Positions 1 through 61,213 of a DNA stretch of 64,000 nt are shown here, in pieces. The DNA is from Octopus vulgaris (Eukaryota). The notes beneath the pieces are model-generated. The model had not been told where the DNA came from. It did not search any database and was given only the letters and a program-made list of their open reading frames with translations. The stretch spans positions 58,280,001 to 58,344,000 of the forward strand of contig OX597830.1 of assembly GCA_951406725.2 (NCBI GenBank), written 5' to 3'. Within the stretch, counting starts at the first letter, position 1, and each line of letters opens with the position of its first letter. The position numbers and the translations under genes were made by a program.

Positions 1-1040
1 CCAGAGAAACGTTGACAGTACACGGCGCTTTCCACCCTGAGAGTGACACCGATAGGCTCTACTTGTCCAGAAGAAAGGGTGTGAGAAGTTTGATCAGTTG
101 CCAGTAATGTAAAGAAGCAGAGGAAAACAACCTTGGGTGGTATATAAAAAATGCCGTGGAGCCACTGCTGAAATACACGAAGAAGGCCGGCGTAATCGAA
201 AATGACGACTGTGTAACTAAAGAAAAATTTTAACAAGAACTGATAAAAAAAAAACATGGAAGGAAAAAGAAAATGTACGGTCAGTTTGCAAGGGAGGTGA
301 ACGTCAAGACAGATACAGAAGATAGGTGGCTATGGATGAGGTGGAGTGACCTGAAGATAGAGACAGGAATACTCATATGCGCAGCTCAAGAACAAGCGTT
401 AAGGACCAATTATATGAAGTGCAGAATAGGCAGCACTACCGATAGCGACAAATGCAGAATGTGTGGAGAGAGAGGTGACATGGTATGGCACATTGTTAAC
501 GAATGCCAGAAATTGGCACAACACAAATACAAAAGATACCAAGACAATGTGATAGAAGGAGTCACCGAAAATGAGAATTACAAAATCCTGTGGGATGCAA
601 TGATCCAGTGCGATCACCCGACCAAACATCGGAAACCGAACATTGTTGTGGTGAATAAAAAAGAAAGAACATTTATGATTATCGACATAGCATGTCCCGG
701 TGACAACAGGGTCGATGTGAAAGAAGAAGAAGAACAAATAAACAACCATGACTATTTAAAGTAGGACATACAAAGGTTGTGGTCAATGAAGAGAGTAGAC
801 TTTATTCTAATAGTATTTTGTGCACTTGGAAGTATCAGCACTCAACTACCAACATGGCTGAAAAAGATCGGTGCAAGTGTGAAGGTAGAACACCTACAAA
901 AATCAGAATTGCTTGGAACTGCAAGAATTCTTTGCAGGGTTCTTGAACCATGACCAGTAAACAAGTGTCACCTTAGTCTGCTGGATGTGGACAGCTGACA
1001 CTTTCCATCATACCCAGCAAAAAAAAAAAAAATTAAAAAA
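1..1040 (+). mobile_element. Decayed 3' part of an R4/Dong-clade non-LTR retrotransposon (CCHC knuckle + restriction-like endonuclease)
   Basis: ORF 273-764 has CRMCGERGDMVWHIVNEC (CCHC) and RKPNIVVVNKKERTFMIIDIACP (PD..D-type RLE). In-frame stops occur up- and downstream, followed by an A-rich tail and (TAA)n. Confidence 0.85.
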
Positions 1041-12554: not shown

Positions 12555-13061
12555 GAGTTGTGCATGGTGTTGGAGAAGGTGGTTCTCAATGACTGTCTGA
12601 GTGAACGACGGCTAATGTGTACTTTCAAAGATCGAGATAGATGTCTGCAGAGATGGGTGTGGTGGGGTCAGACAGGCAGGGAATTTGGCGGGTTTGGCAA
12701 AGATGGGGGCTGGCGCTTGGAAGCTTTGTTTGAGTGTAAGGAGATGCTGTCCTGGCCGGTGGTCATAATTTGAAGTGATCGCAGTTGCTTTCGTGCCTGG
12801 CGTGTAACGTGTACATGGGAGTGAATATGGTGTTATAAAAAGGAAAACTATTGGAGTTGTACCTGGTATATATAGTGTAGAATTAGATGCAAGCCACGGA
12901 GACTGGAGTAAGCTCCGACCAAATGATCCTGTAAGCTGGAGACGAATTAACTTAATGTCAGTTCGATCCAATCTATTACAACACCGCCTCAAATATCGTC
13001 TCAAAATAAGAAATCAACATAATTAAGACATTCTTTGAAATTCAATAAAATTTTGACTCAC

Positions 13062-13584
13062 CGAGTATTTTCATAATCTTTGCGTCCAATTCTTCGGAAA
13101 ATTTATCGGCAGCACCGAAAATATCATCATATTTACCAGACAGGTGACCTTCATATACTGTCAGGAAAAAAATGTATTTCTTGCCAGAATCCACATCCGC
13201 GTAGCAAGAGATTTGCTCACCAAAATTACTTATTAGGTAAGTGGAATTAAGATTTGATGTCTGAGAAAGCGTTTTCGATACATTCTTCAGGTAATCTTCT
13301 CCTTTGTACACAGTTAAGATCCTTACATCAGCGCTGTACGTCCCAGATTTCGTGCGATTCAATTTGTAGGCAGCTTCAACCCGTCCGCTTACGACTACTT
13401 CAGCCAGATCAACTCTCTCTCTCAGTGGAGCTGCTTCCCACCCGTTTAACAAAAGTATACAGGCGTTTGTTTGATTTGAAAGGCAGACGACAACGAAACA
13501 GATCCACAGTAGAATAGCCAGGTGGCATGAAACAGGTAAAAAGCGAGTAAATTTTAGACGTTGATGACAACGGGGTGGCGACAT
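13062..13584 (-). CDS. First coding exon of a secreted NtA (agrin N-terminal / TIMP-like OB-fold) domain protein
   Basis: ATG at 13584 and hydrophobic signal segment (LAILLWICFVVVCL...NAC). NtA-like pattern LRERVDLAEVVVSGRV...TYSADVRILTVYKG...ISNFG...C...V..GKKYIFFL. Phase-1 donor G|GTGAGT after 13062. No downstream exon was convincingly found in the window. Confidence 0.8.
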
Positions 13585-13949
13585 GTTTGTGGCAATAAAT
13601 AATCCTGGACGTTTCTCAGTCGTAAATCTCTTAAATAATGGCAGTTATTTAGGATGATTAAAATCTACTAAGTAGTGAGAGCAAAAGGTAGACATAAATC
13701 AAATATGATACCTTCTGCTTTAATAACATCGTATTTTTGGATCTGAGGCTGTTAACCTAATTTAGTTCTTTTTTATTTTCTTATTTTCTTATTTTCATAT
13801 TTCCTTTCACGCTGTCTCAGTTCTGTCTTCTGTTACCGAAATTTCTTCAGTGACTCTCTCTAACGTGTTTATATAATTCTCCGTTTTTCTTCGTAGCATA
13901 GTTTTTATGTGCTCCTATAAAGAAAAGAATTCGCATTTATATCGCGCGT

Positions 13950-23200: not shown

Positions 23201-23636
23201 ATTTGGTCTGAGGTCTCCAACCCGGCAGTTCCTTCCCCACCACCATTTTCTCTTGCTTAATTCCACCCCTCACACCCTTTGTTTCTTTGGTAATTATGGG
23301 TTTCATTTTTCTCGATGATCTCATCTTTAATCCTATTCATGCTTTTTTACCCATTCTAATGATTCTGTCTCGAACAAAACTCAAAGACTGCAAATTGGGA
23401 GAAACTCTGGAGACCAGTTTGTTTTGATTTGTATCTTTGAATGGAACAAGTTCACCTCGCTGTTATTCTTTTCAACCACGTGGTACATAGTTTTGTTTGC
23501 TTCCGATTTTATTCATCATTAAAACAAGAAGAAATAATCCAAGAAAATTCGTGTGGAAGCCCCTCACCGATACTTTAAATCCTAAAATGCTAATTCCATA
23601 TTTTGGTATAGAATCGTTGGTAGATATGATTTTATT

Positions 23637-23878
23637 TACATTATTTACATTTGACGGATATTTGTCCTCATCTTGTTTGTTAACACAACGTTTCGGCTCA
23701 TATATTCTCCTGCCTTCATCAGGTGTCTTAGGGAAATTTCGAACCTGGGTTCTCATTCCTACGGTATTTTTCGTTGTTATCATTATTATTATTATTCAGG
23801 TCGCTGCCCGGAATCAAACTCAGAATCTTAGGGTTAGTAGCGCGCGCTCTTAACCACTACGCCATATGCCCGTGGGCA
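23637..23878 (-). mobile_element. Solo tRNA-head + hammerhead cassette (Penelope terminal-repeat derived) with 16-bp TSD
   Basis: TSD TAGATATGATTTTATT at 23621-23636 and 23879-23894. A box TGGCGTAGTGG, B-box-like GTTTGATTCC. Matches 47879-48094. Confidence 0.8.
23682..23727 (-). ncRNA. Minimal type I hammerhead ribozyme
   Basis: Minus strand: GACAC-CTGATGA-A-GGC...GCC-GAA-ACGT-T-GTGTT. Intact core, palindromic ACGT stem III, stem I GACAC/GTGTT. Confidence 0.75.
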
Positions 23879-24009
23879 TAGATATGATTTTATTCTCACC
23901 ACTTTAATGGAACTTGTGGTAAAGTTACGCTTACACAATTAAAGCGGTCAAAATTATACGCACTCCCTGCTTTTTCTGTGTATCTATACAAAAGCAGGGG
24001 ATAAACAAG

Positions 24010-24900
24010 TAGGTCATTTTTCTATAAAGTCTCCTTCCTTTTCAATGCACTTGGTCCAGTGGTACACAAGCTTGTGTCTTCCTCCAAGAAGAAGGTTTCC
24101 AGTTGGTCATGCAACCATTTATGCACTGCTTCCTTCACATCTTCATCCGCAGGAAATTGACGACCTCGTAAACCATCTTTGAGAGGTCCAAAAATATGAT
24201 AGTCGGAAGGGGCAAGATCTGGGCTGTAGGCAGGGCGTTCCAGCACCTCAAAACCCAATTGGTTAATGGTCTGGGCGGCCTTGTGTTGGCGTGCATTGTC
24301 AAGCAACAATACTTTCTTCGACAATAGGCTTCGGCGCTTGGCGCGAATTGCTGGCTTCAGTTTGTTGGTCAGCAAAGCACTGTATCTTGCACTGTTGATT
24401 GTAGACTCCTCTTCCAGATAGTCTTCCAGTAGAGGCCCTTTTGAGTCCCCCAAAATGGTTAGCATCACCTTTCTCGCAGAAGACTGTCTTGAATTTCTTC
24501 GTCGCTGGAGAGCCGGGATGTTTCCACTCCATACTCTGTCGTTTGGATTCTGCCTCATAATGATGGACCCATAATTCATCTTCTGTGACTATTCTGCCCA
24601 AAAATTCTTTGCCCTCATTGTTGTAGCGATCGAATAAACGTTGGCAGACCTCAAGACACTTTCGCTTGTGCTCTGCAGTAAGCTCTTTTGACACCCATCC
24701 TGCACAGACTTTATGGAAGCCGAGCTCATCGTGGATGGTTTGATACGCAGAACCATGACAATCCTTCTAACCAGAGAAATTGGATCGTTACTCTTTATTC
24801 TTTGGTGCACATTGCTAGTGGAGCGGCCATGCTTACACTGTAAAGCCAGAAAGAAAAATGGCGCAATCAGGCTCAAACTTCGATCACATGACTACAACAG
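24010..24900 (-). mobile_element. Decayed mariner (DD34D) transposase
   Basis: IVTEDELWVHHYE, LLLDNARQH and YSPDLAPSDY motifs across frameshifted ORFs 24299-24694 and 24022-24579. Confidence 0.9.
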
Positions 24901-29424: not shown

Positions 29425-30972
29425 AGCACATCGACTACGAAGCGGTGACAGGAGTGAAAATCAACCGGGAAAAGTCAGTGGGCTTGCGGCTCGGCACCTG
29501 GAGAAGCAAGCCCTTGCCGTCCACCAGCGCCTCCGTCGTGGGACGCTGGACCGACGGTCCGGTCGAGTTGCTCGGGGTCTGATTTGGTCCGGACCTCCAA
29601 ATGGAGAACTGGAACGAGATAACGAGTAGGGTGGTCACACTCGCCCGGCAATGGGCCGAGAGGAAACTGTCCCTAAAAGGTCGGGCGGAGGTGGCGAATA
29701 TCGCGTCCGTCATCTACTACCGCTTGAACATCGTGCCTTCTCCCGACCCTACCATCATCAAACTAGAACGCATTCTCTTCCGCTTCTTGTGGAAAGGATC
29801 CGTCCCGATGGTCAGGCGATCCATTTGCTGTCAACACCCGTTAAAAGAAGGGCTGGGCATGCCGTGGTTGATGATGCGCAGACACGCGCTGAGACTGCGA
29901 CATCTCTGGCTCTACGTAGACACGCATTCCCGCAACTCGTCTCCATGATCGAACTGCAGTCGTGGATCAAAAAGAGGCCGAGGAAGGGCGAATGGCACCG
30001 CGAGTGTCGCGTTGCTCTCAAGCAACTATGTCGTCCCGGGTCAAGCTTGAGCGACTTCAACACAACCAAAGCATTCTATAGGGGATTAGTGGAGGGGAAG
30101 TACGACGACGAGCTCGGTGTGAACCTGGGCGTCGACGAGGAATACCTGACCCGCCTGTTCAAGACGACTTTCGGGCCAGGACCTATGAACAACTTCCAGT
30201 GCTGGCAGTGCTACCGAGAAGCGCTAACCGTTCGGAATAAGCTCTACAGACACGGGGCCGACCTCCGGTCAGAACGACGAAACCGTTCTGCACGCACTCG
30301 TGCAGTGTCCAACCGTTTGCGACCAGTGGGCTTATGTCGAACGACTGCTGTCACGTGTGGGACGAGTCGGTTTATCAGCCAAGTCTCTCGTCACGCCTCC
30401 TTCCTTCAAACGGGAAGGAAGAGCTATTTTCATCATGCTTGTGGCTATGGTGAAAGAATGTATCTGGTGGACGCGTCTGAAAGGATTAGAGACAAACACT
30501 TTCCTCTCTGGTCAATCTTTCATCAACTTCTTCAAGTATCACTTGAAAAAGGAAAGTGAGAGTAGAGAGGCAAGTTTTGTCTAGTGAATGTTTCAAAAAA
30601 AGATGGGTGAATGTAGCAAGGATGGCACGTATGAATGACGAAGCCACCTTGAGCATAAGCCTATGAATCCGGAAAAATTTAAAACAGAGTTACTTGCAAA
30701 TAAATGTTAACATGTGACATTATTAACCGAGGTTACCGTGGTCTTTTCCGTAGGCTTTTCTTTCCACGAATAAACCTTATCCATTTGCCCCCTTTACATC
30801 ATGACATTTCTGTGATACACGATCCCTATTGATCGTTTCTTTTTCTCTTTCCTTTTTACGATCCCTTTTGGTCGAAAACCTACTCCCGCCTTTTTTTTTC
30901 TCCCCCAAAAGAAAAGCTCTACTTTGTAATCTGTCCCACCTGTGTTCAGCCCCGTGTGGCTAATAAAGAAAC
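29425..30972 (+). mobile_element. L1/Tx1-clade LINE, 5'-truncated and frameshifted
   Basis: YEAVTGVKINREKS...LLGV*FG, WAERKLSLKGRAEVAN, FRFLWKG, P.KEGLGMP, a later zinc-knuckle remnant, and a 3' UTR ending TAATAAAGAAA. Confidence 0.85.
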
Positions 30973-39479: not shown

Positions 39480-39960
39480 AAAGATGATTCTGCTCCTTCT
39501 GCTTGCATAGCTATTAACAATGGACATGAGTTTAGTAGGCTGTAAAAGAGAAAGCAATGTACCAACAGCATCAAACAGATTGAAATTTGATACCAGAAAA
39601 TGAAAAGTTGCACCAAATAGAGGACATCCTCAATGGCAACCACAGCAGGTCGTTAAAGCCCATCAGTGAGCAGCTGATGGAGGCAGAGTCCAAAATCAGA
39701 TGCGTGCTGCAGGAGGTCATCATATACAAGTCCTGTGTGATGAAGAGAGAGGTCAGTTCATGTCCAGTAAAACCCTCTGAACCTGATTATGTGACTCTCA
39801 ACATCATGTGGACTCCTAGGTCTCTCTATTCAAACCCCTTAGATTATTGCAGCTGGGGTATCATTGGGAGGGTGACCCCCACAATGTCAAGAAGTCATGA
39901 GTGGCATGGGTGGAAGCCACTGATCCTAGCATGCAATCTGTCACTACATCAACGCCACTG
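39480..39960 (+). mobile_element. Very decayed maT/Tc1-mariner remnant
   Basis: WTPRSLYSNPLDYCSWG resembles WPPxSPDLNPLDYxVWG. Confidence 0.45.
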
Positions 39961-40009
39961 TTAGGGCAGAAAAGAAGTTTATTAAATGGTTGGTTCCTCT
40001 GAGGCAGAC

Positions 40010-40905
<896 letters not shown>

Positions 40906-41142
40906 TTTTCTGAGAGCATGTATTTTTACTGCTTTTTTTTTTGTATTTTTTCTTCTTACATTTTGTCTTGATCTTGGTTGCCAGTATAAAACAAAGGGAT
41001 GCAGGGAATTAAATTGAAGAAGTTTAGGAAAATATTGTTTGTTGTCACAAATGAGATTTTTAGTAAATTTATGTAATAATTTTGAAAAGAATTAAAAGGG
41101 GGCACAAAAAAAAAAGAACTTTAAATCTTTATTTCAAGGTAC

Positions 41143-45633: not shown

Positions 45634-48094
45634 CAGTTCTATATTTAAGAGATGAGGAATTATTTACATTATTTACATTTGACAGATATTTGTCCTCATC
45701 TTGTTTGTTGTAAACACAACGCTTTGGCTGATATACCCTCCAGCCTTCATCAGGTGTCTTGGGGGAAATTTTGAACCTGGTTCAAGAGGTTGTCTTCATT
45801 ACTTAAGAAAATAAGCAGAGATGATGATAGAAAGAGAATCCAACAAGACCTAGAAAAGTCATACATGAAAGAATTTGAAATGGTGAAGACACACCAGATT
45901 AAGAAGTTTATGAAAACTCAAAGGTCAGAGAATGAAGGCTGAAGTCCGTCACCCACCTGTAAAAGCAGTAATTAATGTAAGAAGCTGACATCTAGAAAGC
46001 TCTGAAGAAGCAGTACTGAACAAAGGTCTCAACTTTGCGACAGCCATCAAGCGCATTCCATACTTGGACATAATAGCTCCTATTGAAGAGATAGCCATAA
46101 AGATACCAAAAGCTCAGGGAGATGAACTAAGGTGGAAAGTGAGACAGGTACTAGAAAAAGCGAAACTTCCCAAACCAAACATCACTAAGGAAGAAACAGT
46201 CACTATTAAAAGACTTCAGAGTGACAATTCCATCATAATACTTCCAGTGGACAAGGGAAATGCTATAGTGGTGATGAACAAGTCTGATTATTTGGAAAAC
46301 TGGCAAGTCTTATAAGTGATGGTAGCTACCACAAAGTAAAGAAAGACCCTACTTTGAAAACAGAGGAAGTTGTCACAGATCTTGATCAAGAACAAGGATC
46401 AGTTTACACCAATGAAGTACAGACAGCTGACTCAACATCACAGTAAACTACCACACATGTACAGTCTTCCTAAGATTCACAAGGATGGTATTCCATTAAG
46501 ACATATAGTGAGCTGTAGAGGTTCAGCATGTCATCCACTGGGCCGCTTCCTTGTGGATATAATCAGTCCGTTAGCAGGACAGTCAACATCGTACGTGAAG
46601 AATTCCACCCACTTCACAGAATTGATCAAGGATACCCCCCTTGAATCCAACCAGATGTGATAAGCCTGTTCACCAAAGTCCCAACTGATGAAGCACTATC
46701 GGTGATACAAGGAAAACTAGTGACACCCATCAAAAAGAACGCATTAGTAAACCAATAAGAAACTTGATGGAAATGGTGACCTTCTGTGTTGAAACTACCT
46801 ACTTCAGTATGGACACTGATATACATCGACGAGAAGAGGGTTTAGCTATGGGTTCGCCATTATCACCGATAATAGCCAATATATACATGGAATACTTTGA
46901 GAATTTGGCTTTAGGATCAACTAAAACCAACCCTATGTCTGCGATATGTTGATGGCACCTTCATATTCTGGCCCCACCAGGAAGATGTCCAAGTGCTGTT
47001 AGATCATGTGAAGTCAATAAAGCCATCCATACAGTTCACAATGGAAAAGGAAACAGACAAGCAGTTGGCATTCTTGGACGTATTAATAACACGCACCAAA
47101 TATGGATTCAGGACCTCCGTATGCCACAAGCCGACCTTCACTGGACAATACCTCAACTTCAAATCCCACCATCCATACAGTGTAAAGAGAGGGATGGCTC
47201 AGTGCCTAAAACATTGAGCAATGAATATAAGTAGCGATCGTGATACCCACCACGAAGAAATGATCAAGCTCTGTAATAATCTATTAAGCAACAACTACCC
47301 CAAAAACATACTCTCCCCTCTAATTATGAAGAAAATAGAAGATGAAACCGATAAACTGTCCATAGTCTGTCTACCCTATGTGAAAGGCCTCTCCGAAAAG
47401 ATACAAAAGATATGCAGCCCATATGACATCAGGACAGTATTCAAGAGTAATACAGCACTTTGCAAATCTCTCCTTCGAGTAAAACCACCAATAAAAGAGA
47501 ATATGATCAAAAACTGTGTGTACTCCATCTCATGCAGCTGTGGTAGGTTATACAAAGGCGAAACATGCAAAATAAGGGTAGAGGAACATTGCAAAACTGT
47601 GATACAGGGAGATATTGATAAATCGGGTATAGCTGATCATGTATGGAAAAATGGAGATCTCCCCAACACACACACACACACACACCTTTGGGATGAAGTT
47701 AAAATAATAGACAGAGAACACCCATGGAAAATACGAAAACTAAAAGCAGCAGCACATATGCTAGGACACAACAACCTCCTAAGCAGACCGAGTGCAGATA
47801 TGAATAACATATGGGAACCGGTATTAAGGAAGGATAGGAGAATATTAGATTTATAAGCCTTAAAATTCACTCCATTATTGCCCACGGGCATATGGCATAG
47901 TGGTTAAGAGCGCAGGCAACTAACCCCAATATTCCATGTTCGATTCCAGGCAGTGACCTGAATAATAACATTGAAAAATACCTTAGGAGTGAGATTCCAG
48001 GTTCAAAATTTGCCCACACCTGATGAAGGCTGGAGGATGTGTTAACAACAAACACGATGAGGACAAATATCCGTTAAATGCAAATAATATAAAT
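45634..48094 (+). mobile_element. Decayed Penelope-like element (RT + GIY-YIG) with inverted 5' terminal repeat and 7-bp TSD
   Basis: Motifs PVDKGNAIVVMN, YSLPKIHK, GLAMGSPLSPIIANIYME, YVDG (YVDD), FLDV and CVYSISCSCGRLYKGET. 45634-45780 is an inverted copy of the 3' repeat. GTCAATT flanks both ends. Confidence 0.9.
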
Positions 48095-55389: not shown

Positions 55390-56050
55390 TTAGACATAAG
55401 AAGCATCAGGTGTGGTGTGTAAGAGAAACGAAGGTGCTGGTATGGTCATGTGATGCATATGGACGAGGACAGCTGTGTAAAGAAGTGTTGATCCCTAACT
55501 GTGGAGGGAACCTGTGGAAGAGACAGACCCAGGAAGATATGGGATGAGGTGGTGAAGCATGATCTCTGAACTTTCGGCCTCACAGAGACAATAACTAGTG
55601 ACCAAGACCCTTTGGTGACATGCTGTGCTTGAGAAGATAGGTCAAGCCAAGTGAAATCACAGTCGTGGCTGATGCTGGTGTCACATAACCGGCACCCATG
55701 CAGGTGGCACGTAAAGAGCACCTTTCAAGCTTGGAGCCCCATGGAGGCAAAGTGGTTGAGCCCTTTTCAAATGTTGGACCTCGTGGACGTATCAACCGAG
55801 TCCGTTTGGCATCATGCTGTGCCTGAGAAGAAGACCCATCAAGCCAAATAAAACTGCAGTTGTAGCAGATACCAGTGTCATGCAAATGGCATCCATTACA
55901 CTCTTGGAGTGGTTAACGATAGGAAGGGCATCCAACCACAGAAGATATGCCAAAACAGACGGGAGCCTGGTGCAGCCTTCCAGCTTGTCAGCCCTGGTCA
56001 AACTGTCCAACACATGCCAGCATGGACAACGAACATTAAATGATGATGAT
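55390..56050 (+). mobile_element. RTE LINE 3' end (ORF end + UTR + (ATG)n tail)
   Basis: WYGHVMHMDEDSCVKKC*...EGTCGRDRPRKIWDEVVKHDL. Confidence 0.8.
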
Positions 56051-56094
56051 GTTTGTGTGCATGCCTTAATTTTATAGAAAAATCCCAGTCTCAC

Positions 56095-56238
56095 CTTTCG
56101 TACATCTGCACTCTTTGGTTCTGTAGTCCAGGTTATAATTCTAGATACAGCTAAACGGGAATCACTAGAATTATTGAAATCTGAGGGGTCCATAAGTAGG
56201 ATCAAAGCATGCATGTATTGCAGAACAGCTGCTTTCAC
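56095..56238 (-). CDS. CLASP: CLASP exon (VKAAVLQYMH...RLAVSRIITWTTEPKSADVRK); upstream exons probably lie beyond the window
   Basis: 144 nt, phase 0-0; near-identical to the CLASP motif RLAVSRIITWTTEPKS.DVRK. Confidence 0.95.
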
Positions 56239-57758
56239 CTGGAAAAGCAATCCAATGAGAAATATTAATAAATCAGCCAAACAATTTTGCAGGTGTGTTA
56301 ATATAATCATGAAAAAACTTAACTCAATACCTAACAACCAACCAAAACAAAGCAAAATTAATCTTATAGTCAGGCAATAACAAACGGAATATGTATGATA
56401 TTGATTTTTTTTTTCTAAAGAAAGGGAAAAAACACACTTGCAAAAATTTAAAGAATTACCTCGATAATACTTTATATAGGAGTAAATTAATTAATATTAG
56501 AATTTGAATGATATTTTTCTTTTAGTTTTTTCTTTTATTTAGTCAGTTAACATCTTTTTTGAAACTGGAATATTGCAGTAATATACTGTATGAATGTCAT
56601 GCTAATGTTATAAAATTCAGAGATGTATTCAAATCTTGCACATCTATTTTAAAAACTGATTAAAAAGCTGTTAAAGACTGAGAGCGATTTAATAACTAAT
56701 CAGTGATTCTAATAATAATAATAAGAAGAAGAAGCAAAGTAAAAAAAAATGTCACATGCTAGATCCAAGACAAATGACATATGAAGATTGTTTAAAATAT
56801 GATGAGTGCAAAAGTGATTACTTGTTGAATATAATTAAGTTTAATTAACAGTAATTATAACTGGAGTAAGATATTATAATTCAGCTTGTGCCTCTGTCAG
56901 CACTTGTGTTGGGCAGTTGTCACTAAACATTAGTGATGTTATGGTGAGCTGGTAGAATTACTAGCATGACAGACAAACTGCTTGGCAGCAGTTCCTCCAG
57001 CTCTTTACATTCTGGGTTCAAATTCTACCATGGTTGACTTTGCCTTTCATCCTTTTGTAATAGATTAAAATAAGCTGAGTACTGGGCTTGAACCAACTGA
57101 CTAGCTTCTTCCCACAAAATTTCACACCTTCTGCCAAAAGTATTATCCTTATTATTAACAGAAATACTGGCCTCTATGCAGTTTTCCATTAGTTTAGAAT
57201 AACAGCCTACGTGAGGGACTTATAATTTATAAATTAAATATGGATATTCTTATTCTTCCATTGCCTCTCCTCTCCCCCATTAAAATTAACATTACAGCCA
57301 TTAATTCTGTAAGAAACAAATATGTAACCTAAAGCCATTAATTCAGGTATTTAATGAAGAAATATTTAATGAAAAATTATAGATCAAACTTTGTGTGTGT
57401 GTGTGTGTAAAGAGAGAGGAGAGAGACAGAGAATTGGAGAGAGTTTCTACAATAATGCAACATTACTGGCAATTCTTAATTTGACCAAAGAAATCAGGAG
57501 TTTGTTTGACAATTGGCAGAATAAACACAAATCAGCAGAAAAAAACTCCAGATAGAATGATTCACAATTTATCCAATATTATTTAAGAAGTTGGAGAAAT
57601 ATAAGCAAAACTTTGACATGGCAAGACACTGGGTCAATAACAGTTCAGAATCAAAAATGGTAACTTAGATTACCTAGACTTCAATTCAGCCTCTCAACAG
57701 GCTCACCTGAGAAGAACAAGTTCATTGAAATCAATAAAACTTCAATGTTCATATAAAG

Positions 57759-58795: not shown

Positions 58796-59577
58796 ACAAT
58801 TTCTATATTTAAGAGATGTGGAATTATGTGCATTATTTACATTTGAAGGATATTTGTCCTCCCAGCCTTCATCAGGTCTCTTGAGGAAATTTCGAACCTG
58901 GGTTCTCATTCCAAAGGTATTTTTTGATATTATTATTATTATTCGGGTCACTGCCTGGAAACCACTACACCATATGCCCACGGGCATATGGTGTAGTGGT
59001 TAGGAGCGCACGCTACTACCCCAAGATTCTGAGTTCGATTCCAGGTAGTGACCTGAATAATAACATCGAAGAATAATAATATTAATAATAATAACAACAA
59101 CATAGTGCCGATGGCACGTAAGAGAACCATCCGAACGTGGCCGTTGCCAGTGCCGCCCTGACTGGCCTCCATGCCAGTGGCACGTAAAATGCACCATCCG
59201 ATTGTGGCCGTTGCCAGCCTCGTCTGGCCCCCGTGCCAGTGGCATGTAAAAAGCACTATCCGATTGTGGCCGTTTGCCAGCCTCGTCTGGCACCTGTGCA
59301 GGTGGCACGTAAAAAGCACCCACTACACTCACAGAGTGATTGGCGTTAGGAAAGGCATCCAGCCGTAGAAACACTGCCAGATCAGACTGGGCCTGGCGCA
59401 GCCTTCTGGCTTCCCAGACCTCAGTTGAACCGTCCAACCCATGCTAGCATGGAGAACGGACGTTAAACGATGATGATAGAAAAATCCCCAAGACATCTGA
59501 TGAAGGCTGGAGGGTATATCAGCTGAAATGTTGCGTTAACAACAAACAAGATGAGGACAAATATCCGTCAAATGTAG
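58796..59577. mobile_element. Head-to-head fold-back duplication of the tRNA + hammerhead cassette, interrupted by an RTE 3' UTR insertion (~59100-59477)
   Basis: Minus copy 58796-58979 and plus copy 58982-59577, joined by a hairpin with perfect 20-bp arms. Confidence 0.8.
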
Positions 59578-59781
59578 ATGACGATGATGTTGCTACAAAT
59601 TAATTCTGAAATTCCTTGTTCAGTTCAACTAACCTTGCACCATTAAATTCACAACTCCAATGTTTCATTGCTTTTTCCTCCCACCTAAAACTCTCTTTGT
59701 TGAAGGCCCAAAGCTTTGCAGATATTTCTCTTATGCACACTAACAAATAATACTCCTGTACTCAGTTTCTATATCTTTCAT

Positions 59782-61017: not shown

Positions 61018-61213
61018 ATCGTAACATATGATTGCCAACCAAGTGTGGCATCTTATACAGGACAGTGCTACTGACGTTAATAGCCCCAGGAAGACATCTC
61101 TTCCAGCTGTGTGTCATTAACCAGCTGGAAGAGATGTCTTCCTGGGGCTATAAACGTCAGTAGCACTGTCCTGTATAGGCTGCCACACTTGGTTGGCAAT
61201 TATATGTTACGAT
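61018..61213. mobile_element. Near-perfect palindromic MITE (~92-bp arms)
   Basis: ATCGTAACATATGATTGCCAACCAAGTGTGGCA...TGCCACACTTGGTTGGCAATTATATGTTACGAT with a ~12-nt loop. Confidence 0.85.

What the first reader, a model, noticed from the sequence alone, without database searches (positions are those of the whole stretch)
23621..23894. Independently mobile ~240-nt hairpin + tRNA-like Pol III promoter + hammerhead ribozyme cassette (Penelope-dependent SINE/retrozyme)
Seen: on the minus strand the unit runs hairpin TGCCCACGGGCA, A box TGGCGTAGTGG, tRNA-like arms, B-box-like motif, (ATA)n spacer, an intact minimal type I hammerhead (GACAC CTGATGA A GGC..GCC GAA ACGT T GTGTT), then a tail. A perfect 16-bp TSD brackets it, and the same unit is the 3' repeat of the Penelope element at 47879-48094. 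Established: Penelope-like elements carry minimal hammerheads with palindromic stem III that cleave as dimers, and schistosome Sm-alpha repeats combine a tRNA-like promoter with a hammerhead. Inference: this is a Pol III-transcribed, self-cleaving non-autonomous retroelement mobilised by the Penelope RT/GIY-YIG. I do not know of this being described in cephalopods.
Basis: partly seen in the sequence, partly recalled or inferred. Interest (0 to 1): 0.85.

Follow-up and report, generated by a model that had tools for sequence, protein, structure and literature searches.

The report
Penelope retrotransposon with tRNA-type promoter
This 240-base piece is the terminal repeat of a Penelope retrotransposon, present in an estimated 20,000 mostly solitary copies, and it carries a tRNA-like promoter that likely lets RNA polymerase III transcribe the element, so the solitary copies are likely by-products of Penelope's own copying rather than a separate SINE family.

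Summary
It is the pseudo-LTR (pLTR) of a Poseidon-like Penelope family. It follows the RT/GIY-YIG ORF and also precedes it, running in frame through the hammerhead into the ORF. Solo copies outnumber ORF ends about 7:1. They carry Penelope marks: head-to-head inversion, a ~30-nt tail at one end only (36 of 38 pairs) and 10-15-bp TSDs. No solo-only subfamily was found. The unusual part is the head. It is tRNA-like with consensus A and B boxes, and 58 of 90 sampled copies begin within 25 bases of it. The 2.36-kb majority body has no T4 run (Pol III terminator), against 1 of 35 related Penelope families. Most likely a captured tRNA/SINE head became the element's promoter, and reverse transcription starting inside the ORF copies back to the RNA's 5' end and drops solo pLTRs. 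Pol III use and cleavage are inferred, not shown. The flagged copy is decayed (B box mutated, stem II weakened).

The parts
23879..23894 (-). target-site duplication, 5' copy (16 bp)
   Evidence: family TSDs are 10-15 bp
23867..23878 (-). palindromic hairpin at unit positions 1-12; part of the autonomous element's pLTR; likely serves as microhomology when two arms join head to head
   Evidence: (present in ORF-linked copies)
23798..23871 (-). tRNA-like head (unit 8-81); the majority head is 49/75 identical to a genomic tRNA-Arg(TCG) and scores equally with the head of an older SINE family of this genome
23854..23864 (-). A box (type 2 Pol III promoter consensus)
23811..23819 (-). B box; consensus in the family majority, C-to-T decayed in this copy
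23776..23796 (-). (AAT/AAC)n spacer, highly variable in length between copies
23754..23756 (-). ATG (unit 123), in frame with the Penelope ORF when the pLTR sits at the element's 5' end; 70 nt upstream of the predicted cut
23682..23727 (-). minimal type I hammerhead with palindromic stem III; predicted cut between 23687 and 23686; also codes for the ORF N-terminus
23637..23681 (-). 3' part of the pLTR, ending at the first of the two family 3' end points (unit ~245-252); this copy has no tail
23621..23636 (-). target-site duplication, 3' copy
45637..45780 (-). inverted, 5'-truncated pLTR arm (unit 131-280) with hammerhead and tail, at the 5' end of the window's long Penelope copy
   Evidence: L061
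45790..47856 (+). 5'-truncated, frameshifted Penelope ORF (N-terminal domain, RT, GIY-YIG-type C-terminus)
47879..48094 (+). 3' pLTR of that Penelope copy: head intact, half of the hammerhead core deleted
58801..59579 (.). a third insertion of the family: head-to-head pair centred on the hairpin near 58980; its + arm is interrupted by another repeat (about 59106-59478)

Best explanation
The unit is the pseudo-LTR of an autonomous Poseidon-like Penelope family that carries a tRNA-like head with A and B boxes, which likely served as an internal RNA polymerase III promoter, and the solitary copies are likely reverse-transcription products of RNAs that began at that head. Steps: (1, shown) in full-length copies the pLTR runs directly into the ORF; an ATG upstream of the hammerhead reads through it in frame, and the 'tail' is the ORF's start. 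(2, inferred) Pol III starts near unit position 1-2, about 13 nt before the A box, and can read through the whole element because the sense strand has no T4 terminator. (3, inferred from PAc biochemistry) the Penelope protein nicks both target strands 10-16 bp apart and starts reverse transcription at two sites inside the ORF start (unit ~250 and ~278). (4, inferred) on an RNA that begins in a 5' pLTR, copying back from those sites reaches the RNA end after about 250 nt and yields a solo pLTR or a head-to-head pair with a tail at one end. On an RNA that has ORF upstream of the pLTR it yields long copies. (5, inferred) most solos are dead ends, because the protein-binding region that lies further into the ORF is not copied. 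(6, inferred) hammerhead cleavage, probably as a dimer or with protein help, would cut the AUG off the ORF and remove RT template, so it would act as a regulator and not as the step that makes the unit.
For: pLTR identity: 6 of 30 head-selected copies run into the ORF end; long copies are followed by the unit; several long copies have a direct upstream pLTR running into the ORF start. Frame: three real copies translate from the pLTR ATG into the N-terminal domain; 36% identity over 115 aa to homolog P0003, starting in the hammerhead-coded codons, E=3e-18. Penelope marks on solos: 49 of 69 ORF-less insertions are inverted composites; tail at exactly one end in 36 of 38 resolved pairs; 3' ends cluster at 245-252 and 274-281; TSD of 10 bp or more in 20 of 81 insertions against 0.5% in controls. 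5' end hot spot: 58 of 90 arms start at -10 to +15; in long insertions only 1 of 12 second arms starts there, p=2e-5. Pol III signs: consensus A box at 15 and B box at 60; 0 T4 runs in the 2,356-nt majority body against 4.1 expected, P=0.0135, none in pLTR plus tail; related Penelope loci have 502 against 361 expected, 1 of 35 families has none, 7 of 9 have T4 before the hammerhead, and none of 19 pattern hits has A plus B boxes there. By-product reading: haplotypes solo/ORF-linked 60/28, 17/11, 20/3; paired arms differ at 7.9% of sites against 9.0% for random pairs and share 0.6% private changes. PMC11167929: RT starts internally at two sites in the ORF, product length follows the RNA 5' end, the first 172 nt of ORF are required, and cleavage is dispensable.
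Against: No direct evidence of Pol III use or of cleavage. The 5' ends spread over about 25 nt, not one base. The T4 deficit is one evolutionary sample; under a synonymous-codon shuffle of the 1,677-nt frame it is not significant (0 against 1.7, P=0.14), and G4 runs are also absent (34 against 117 in copies; relatives 106 against 169). One related family (L317) also has no T4 in its ORF. The long-insertion control speaks to RT stops only if both arms are primed on RNA; under a fold-back model the second arm's start is a landing site. One haplotype is commoner in solos (20 of 98 against 3 of 42 among the three main haplotypes), and the excess of shared private changes (0.6% against 0.14%) allows some secondary sources. 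The head is too degenerate for Rfam or default ARAGORN. A Pol III transcript of about 2.9 kb that is translated without a cap is unusual (own knowledge).
Confidence: 0.6

Rival explanations
1. Independent Penelope-dependent SINE: solo pLTRs with intact A/B boxes and a tail were transcribed by Pol III and re-mobilised in trans, forming their own lineage.
For: Solos carry their own internal promoter; both boxes are intact in 83 of 202 arms; head-bearing arms outnumber ORF ends about 7:1; one haplotype is enriched in solos; 34 of 92 arm pairs share at least one private change. Non-autonomous Penelope derivatives are described (PMC8557442 passages; bioRxiv 2026.07.22.740005).
Against: No diagnostic position separates solo from ORF-linked pLTRs; all three main haplotypes have ORF-linked members; most differences arose after insertion; in PAc the RNA needed for activity extends beyond what is copied.
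Confidence: 0.2
2. The head marks an RNA-processing or RT-stop site on a long Pol II transcript: either RNase P cuts at the tRNA-like fold (unit position 8), or the hairpin lets nascent cDNA snap back and end synthesis. The A/B boxes would then be a passive relic of a SINE that inserted in the 3' UTR.
For: Position 8, the tRNA +1 position, is the single commonest start (7 of 90); several pairs are symmetric about the hairpin; D. virilis Penelope has an internal, LINE-like TATA-less promoter (PMC2377424 abstract).
Against: 19 of 90 arms start at positions 1-5, upstream of a cut at 8; 11 of 12 second arms in long insertions pass through head and hairpin; the head folds poorly as a cloverleaf; it does not explain the T4-free strand.
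Confidence: 0.15
3. Ordinary random 5' truncation of Penelope, or a LINE-mobilised SINE that happened to insert at a Penelope 3' end.
For: Most Penelope copies are 5'-truncated (PMC8557442 passages); the 3' end has a short tandem repeat like LINE-type tails; the flagged copy is a single arm with a clean TSD.
Against: Step of about 7-fold across some 60 bases at the head against 1.2-fold across the next 115; 29 of 30 ORF ends run into at least part of the head (first 24 rows read in full, the rest cut from view; see report); tail asymmetry and inversions are Penelope marks.
Confidence: 0.05

Closest known systems
Poseidon element of Anolis carolinensis, PAc (Frangieh et al. 2024, PMC11167929; parts 1-2 of 4 read)
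   Same: pLTR-ORF-pLTR layout; hammerhead overlapping the ORF start with the cut downstream of the start codon; two 3' end points defining the tail inside the ORF start.
   Different: No tRNA-like head or Pol III promoter is described in the parts read; here the ATG lies 70 nt before the cut (26 in PAc), so the whole hammerhead is coding; solo pLTRs starting at one place dominate the family.
Minimal PLE hammerheads (Cervera and de la Pena 2014, PMC4209133; parts 1-2 of 4 read)
   Same: Type I, 5-bp stem I, extra base before stem II, palindromic 15.2-16.2; mostly single motifs or opposite-strand pairs 100-700 bp apart.
   Different: That paper attributes the single motifs to truncated PLEs; here the 5' ends are tied to a promoter-like head.
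Schistosome Sm-alpha / Sj-alpha (seen only through PMC6765202 and PMC8490949 passages; Ferbeyre 1998 not held)
   Same: Pol III-type promoter followed by a type I hammerhead in a short dispersed repeat.
   Different: Described as a non-autonomous SINE-like, often tandem repeat; here the same layout is the terminal repeat of a protein-coding Penelope and is not in tandem arrays.
TRIMp3: Cassandra, Helenus, Ajax (Kojima 2024, PMC10886601, passages)
   Same: Small-RNA-derived Pol III promoter inside a terminal repeat, proposed to arise by SINE insertion.
   Different: Those are short non-autonomous LTR elements, and the paper argues that autonomous partners must use Pol II; here the head sits in the repeat of an autonomous non-LTR-type element with a 2.3-kb ORF.
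Non-LTR retrozymes (PMC7229834 passages; bioRxiv 10.64898/2026.07.22.740005, parts 1-2 of 5 and passages)
   Same: 170-400-nt units with a type I hammerhead, related to pLTRs.
   Different: Defined by head-to-tail tandem units and circular RNA; none of 82 insertions here is such an array. The preprint's text has no hit for tRNA, promoter or polymerase III.

Membership tests
EN+ Penelope-like element (Penelope/Poseidon type), pLTR | single ORF with RT and C-terminal GIY-YIG-type endonuclease | tested here: met
   RVT_1 above cut-off; RT motifs and YKGET/RVEEH motifs in order; 56 homologs among 1,317 candidates, up to 68% identity. Pfam named no GIY-YIG family for the C-terminal piece.
EN+ Penelope-like element (Penelope/Poseidon type), pLTR | same repeat before and after the ORF (partial tandem) | tested here: met
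   L063/L271, L067, L069, L072, L083, L084 have a direct upstream pLTR
EN+ Penelope-like element (Penelope/Poseidon type), pLTR | inverted 5'-truncated copy at the 5' end; 30-40-bp tail at one end | tested here: met
   54 of 82 insertions inverted; tail at one end in 36 of 38 resolved pairs, 16 unresolved
EN+ Penelope-like element (Penelope/Poseidon type), pLTR | minimal hammerhead with palindromic stem III in the pLTR | tested here: met
   core plus palindrome intact in 72 of 270 arms; sequence only, activity untested
EN+ Penelope-like element (Penelope/Poseidon type), pLTR | placement in the Penelope/Poseidon clade by RT phylogeny | not tested
   No tree with named references was built; 'Poseidon-like' rests on layout and on recalled N-terminal motifs
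tRNA-derived SINE | tRNA-derived head with A and B boxes | tested here: met
   49/75 identity to genomic tRNA-Arg(TCG), z=7.4 against shuffles; only 6 amino-acid isotypes were sampled, so the source tRNA is not fixed; no call by Rfam or default ARAGORN
tRNA-derived SINE | transcription by Pol III | not testable with these tools
   indirect only: start hot spot, T4-free strand; the RNA-seq laid was unstranded
tRNA-derived SINE | self-propagating non-autonomous lineage distinct from the autonomous partner | tested here: not met
   no diagnostic site between 135 head-starting and 73 ORF-linked arms; shared haplotypes; sample small, so minor solo lineages are not excluded
tRNA-derived SINE | 3' end shared with a LINE partner | tested here: not met
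   3' end continues into the Penelope ORF start; no genome-wide LINE 3' end comparison was run
non-LTR retrozyme | head-to-tail tandem of at least two complete hammerhead units | tested here: not met
   none among 82 insertions; only partial direct repeats such as L165 and L172
non-LTR retrozyme | abundant linear and circular unit-length RNA | not testable with these tools
   cannot show ends or circles
TRIMp3 (Cassandra/Helenus) | non-autonomous LTR element with PBS/PPT and 4-5-bp TSD | tested here: not met
   TSDs are 10-15 bp and the element encodes its own RT; PBS/PPT not searched

The most novel reading that the evidence does not exclude
An autonomous, protein-coding retrotransposon that switched to RNA polymerase III. 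A tRNA/SINE head captured into its pLTR drives a roughly 2.9-kb, terminator-free transcript whose ORF starts upstream of a hammerhead. The protein would be made only from uncleaved or re-circularised RNA. The same promoter sheds some 20,000 promoter-bearing solo repeats, which would be a SINE family caught at birth from a Penelope.
Probability: 0.4. Interest if true: 0.85.

Novelty: new variant of a known kind. Interest (0 to 1): 0.6.

Why it matters
What drives Penelope transcription, what the pLTR hammerhead is for, and where Sm-alpha-type 'Pol III promoter plus hammerhead' repeats come from are open questions. Here the promoter-like head, the hammerhead, the start codon and the two RT start points lie within 280 bases, and thousands of copies record the template's 5' end. 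That makes each question testable on one short RNA. If the Pol III reading holds, it contradicts the expectation that autonomous retroelements need Pol II, and gives a concrete route from a Penelope pLTR to a SINE-like family. For annotation, these copies would be mislabelled as tRNA SINEs or unknown repeats.

Tried and rejected
Rfam scans found no tRNA or hammerhead, only microsatellite noise; ARAGORN found nothing in the window. RNA: no RNA holder listed. Three raw RNA-seq runs and one contig set were laid on L271. The reads were balanced between strands, 73-77% ran on into unlike flanks, and none piled up at the head or the cut site. The runs may be from a related species. They say nothing for or against a discrete transcript. 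Searching G000 for a second Penelope family as an in-genome T4 control returned only this family (30 of 30 loci). Other LINE frames in flanks gave 11 T4 runs against 16.7 expected in 11 frames, one of them a duplicate: too few to use. Region-wise substitution rates (hammerhead core 3.3%, B box 3.5%, others 4.5-5.3%) and class divergences are biased by exact-word selection and were not used. A first metagenome scan with P0003 found nothing, so no DNA for the closest homologs was seen and it is unknown whether they have the head. Earlier scan findings: none by sequence or words. I first read the hairpin as the primer of a fold-back that makes all inverted pairs; I dropped this as the main mechanism because shorter arms start anywhere from 1 to 250 and the two arms end at different 3' points. 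I first took the tail for a 5' UTR; it is ORF. Ferbeyre 1998 and Lunse 2017 were not held.

Full report
Observation. All listed features are in the sequence at the stated place: a 16-bp duplication, hairpin, A box, B-box-like motif, (AAT)n, and a minimal type I hammerhead. Against the family majority this copy has 13 substitutions and a 3-bp deletion outside the microsatellite, among them a C-to-T change in the B box and two changes that cut stem II from 5 to 3 bp. The copy at 47879-48094 is 75.5% identical and lacks half of the core. The window holds two more pieces: an inverted arm at 45637-45780 and a head-to-head pair at about 58800-59580.

The unit is a pLTR. Of 30 copies picked by a head 25-mer, 6 continue upstream into the end of the Penelope ORF. 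Conversely, 30 loci were picked by an ORF-end 19-mer; the output was cut, and of the 24 rows shown in full 23 run on into at least part of the head and one (L136) stops inside the hairpin. The figure '29 of 30' in the third rival should be read as this 23 of 24. Long copies found with the ORF's 5' part show a direct upstream pLTR running into the element body (middle rows cut from view). That junction is coding. An ATG at unit position 123 reads through the hammerhead and the tail into the N-terminal domain in the majority and, with decay, in L063, L083 and L084. The homolog P0003 (53% identical in RT/EN) has the same hammerhead-coded peptide in the same frame after an upstream Met. The ORF has RVT_1 and RT and endonuclease motifs in order. 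None of the long copies examined has an intact ORF, and non-CpG divergence is 4-6%, so the family looks extinct.

Copy numbers. Exact 19-mers occur 9,781 times (hammerhead), 5,629 times (head) and 1,157 times (ORF end). Scaled by the exact-match fraction in arms not picked by that word (74 of 184, 27 of 98, 26 of 62), this gives about 24,000, 20,000 and 2,800 arms. These are rough, and arms are not insertions.

Solos carry Penelope marks. I took 90 of the 100 listed matches, all from the first 55 Mb of contig C1; the 10 left out were already held or were second arms of a fetched insertion. They collapse to 82 insertions: 69 without ORF (49 inverted composites, 20 single arms) and 13 with ORF. 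3' ends cluster at 245-252 and 274-281. Of 54 head-to-head pairs, 38 had both ends resolved, and 36 of these have the tail at exactly one end. TSDs of 10 bp or more flank 20 of 81 scorable insertions (8 bp or more: 26), against 0.5% (2.8%) for mismatched flanks; lengths run to 15. Only 2 of 20 single arms had a TSD of 10 bp or more, so the flagged copy's clean SINE-like look is the minority form. Craig 2021 (PMC8557442, passages) lists the inversion and one-ended tail as PLE traits. Frangieh 2024 (PMC11167929, parts 1-2 of 4) shows for PAc that both strands are nicked and extended, that RT starts at two sites inside the ORF start, that the tail is the stretch between them, that product length follows the RNA's 5' end, that the first 172 nt of ORF are needed, and that hammerhead cleavage is dispensable. 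Two priming events explain the one-ended tail well (inference).

5' ends are not random. Of 90 arms, 58 start at -10 to +15, 12 at 16-30, 8 at -11 to -100 (at least three of them alignment overshoot) and 12 further into the ORF. Starts at -10 to -1 are mostly read-through of the palindrome into the opposite arm. In 39 long insertions with an inverted arm, 12 second arms cover the same anchor; 1 starts at the head and 11 pass through it (p=2e-5 against 58 of 78). If both arms are RNA-primed, the head is not an RT barrier, and the hot spot marks an RNA 5' end. That condition is not proven.

The head looks like a Pol III promoter. The majority has a consensus A box at 15 and B box at 60; both are intact in 83 of 202 arms. 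It is 49/75 identical to a genomic tRNA-Arg(TCG), the best of 30 tRNA loci covering six amino acids. A profile of the head picks up, after family members, the heads of other SINEs of this genome and that tRNA gene. It scores 64 against both the tRNA and the majority head of an older SINE family (shuffle 33 +/- 4), whose body I recall as CORE-type. Capture of a SINE head is therefore plausible but not shown. A start at position 1-2 would lie 13-14 nt before the A box, as expected for type 2 promoters (own knowledge).

The sense strand avoids Pol III terminators. The 2,356-nt majority body has no T4 run (4.1 expected, P=0.0135), nor does the pLTR plus tail. Decayed copies have 44 against 222 expected, but they descend from one master. 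In 80 related Penelope loci from other organisms T4 runs are in excess, 502 against 361. They form 45 families; of the 35 with at least 3 expected, one has none, and the median ratio is 1.2. Of 9 families with a hammerhead downstream, 7 have T4 before it, and none of the 19 pattern hits has A plus B boxes there. Against: the codon-preserving test is not significant (P=0.14), and G4 runs are absent too, though relatives are also G4-poor (106 against 169). I take this as moderate support.

Independent SINE or by-product. Among 135 head-starting and 73 ORF-linked arms no position is diagnostic. The three main haplotypes occur in both classes (60/28, 17/11, 20/3). In 92 arm pairs the arms agree at 176 of 192 polymorphic sites, so they come from one source, yet they differ at 7.9% of other sites against 9.0% for random pairs and share only 0.6% private changes (0.14% by chance). 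Most copies thus came from a few near-identical masters. Some loci are segmental duplicates and exact-word selection favours young copies, so a minor solo lineage is not excluded.

Hammerhead. The core and palindrome are intact in 72 of 270 arms. The common variant at unit 161 falls on the free position of CUGANGA. Stem III cannot close in a monomer, as for the minimal PLE hammerheads, which cleaved weakly and not as single motifs (PMC4209133, parts 1-2 of 4). RNAcofold did not predict the active dimer as the lowest-energy form. Since inserted copies span the cut, their templates were uncleaved or re-ligated. Cleavage would part the AUG from the ORF (inference).

Comparison and novelty. Each part has a precedent: pLTR hammerheads, a start codon upstream of the cut (PAc), Pol III promoter plus hammerhead (Sm-alpha, through PMC6765202 and PMC8490949 passages), a tRNA promoter in a terminal repeat (TRIMp3, PMC10886601 passages), and retrozymes as pLTR derivatives (bioRxiv 2026.07.22.740005; PMC7229834 passages). 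I found no description of an autonomous Penelope with a tRNA-type head in eight full-text searches. The O. vulgaris repeat paper (PMC13282606, part 1 of 3 and its one held supplement) gives only totals (190 Penelope-like families). PMC4758252 and PMC6962438 (passages) and PMC2377424 (abstract) add background only. Ohshima and Okada 1994 was seen only as a citation. Repbase, Dfam, SINEBase and bioRxiv supplements could not be checked, and the family may be deposited there. Verdict: new variant of a known kind, interest 0.6.

Noticed in passing
P0003 residues 1-60; window 23756-23637 (-): The hammerhead is protein-coding in the same frame in this family and in a homolog 53% identical in RT/EN, with an upstream Met in both; common pLTR length variants in this stretch are 3 or 9 nt.
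   Followed up: partly
L317 (related Penelope, metagenome contig): The only related family of 35 with no T4 run in its ORF match (0 against 3.3); its pLTR is T-rich and has no A/B boxes.
   Followed up: partly
window 23742-23752 (-), unit ~135-145: A second B-box-like motif (GGTTCGAAA) lies between the ATG and the hammerhead in the family majority.
   Followed up: no
window 24022-24766: Frameshifted mariner-type DDE transposase (Transposase_1) about 130 bp from the flagged insertion.
   Followed up: no
window 13042-13644 (-): Exon with an Agrin NtA domain; a host gene lies in the window.
   Followed up: no
window 234-764 (+): C-terminal piece of a LINE ORF with a zinc-knuckle (weak zf-RVT hit).
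   Followed up: no
window 61061-61170: Near-perfect 37-bp inverted repeat around a 34-nt loop, MITE-like or hairpin; not examined.
   Followed up: no
window 39860-41090: About 1 kb of degenerate (CA)n microsatellite.
   Followed up: no
L109:1198-1262, L091:78-146, L071:3281-3343: An older SINE family whose head resembles the Penelope head as closely as tRNA-Arg does; a candidate donor.
   Followed up: partly
window 29630-30559 (+) and 55792-56490 (-): Stop-free frames of 309 and 232 aa with no Pfam match.
   Followed up: no
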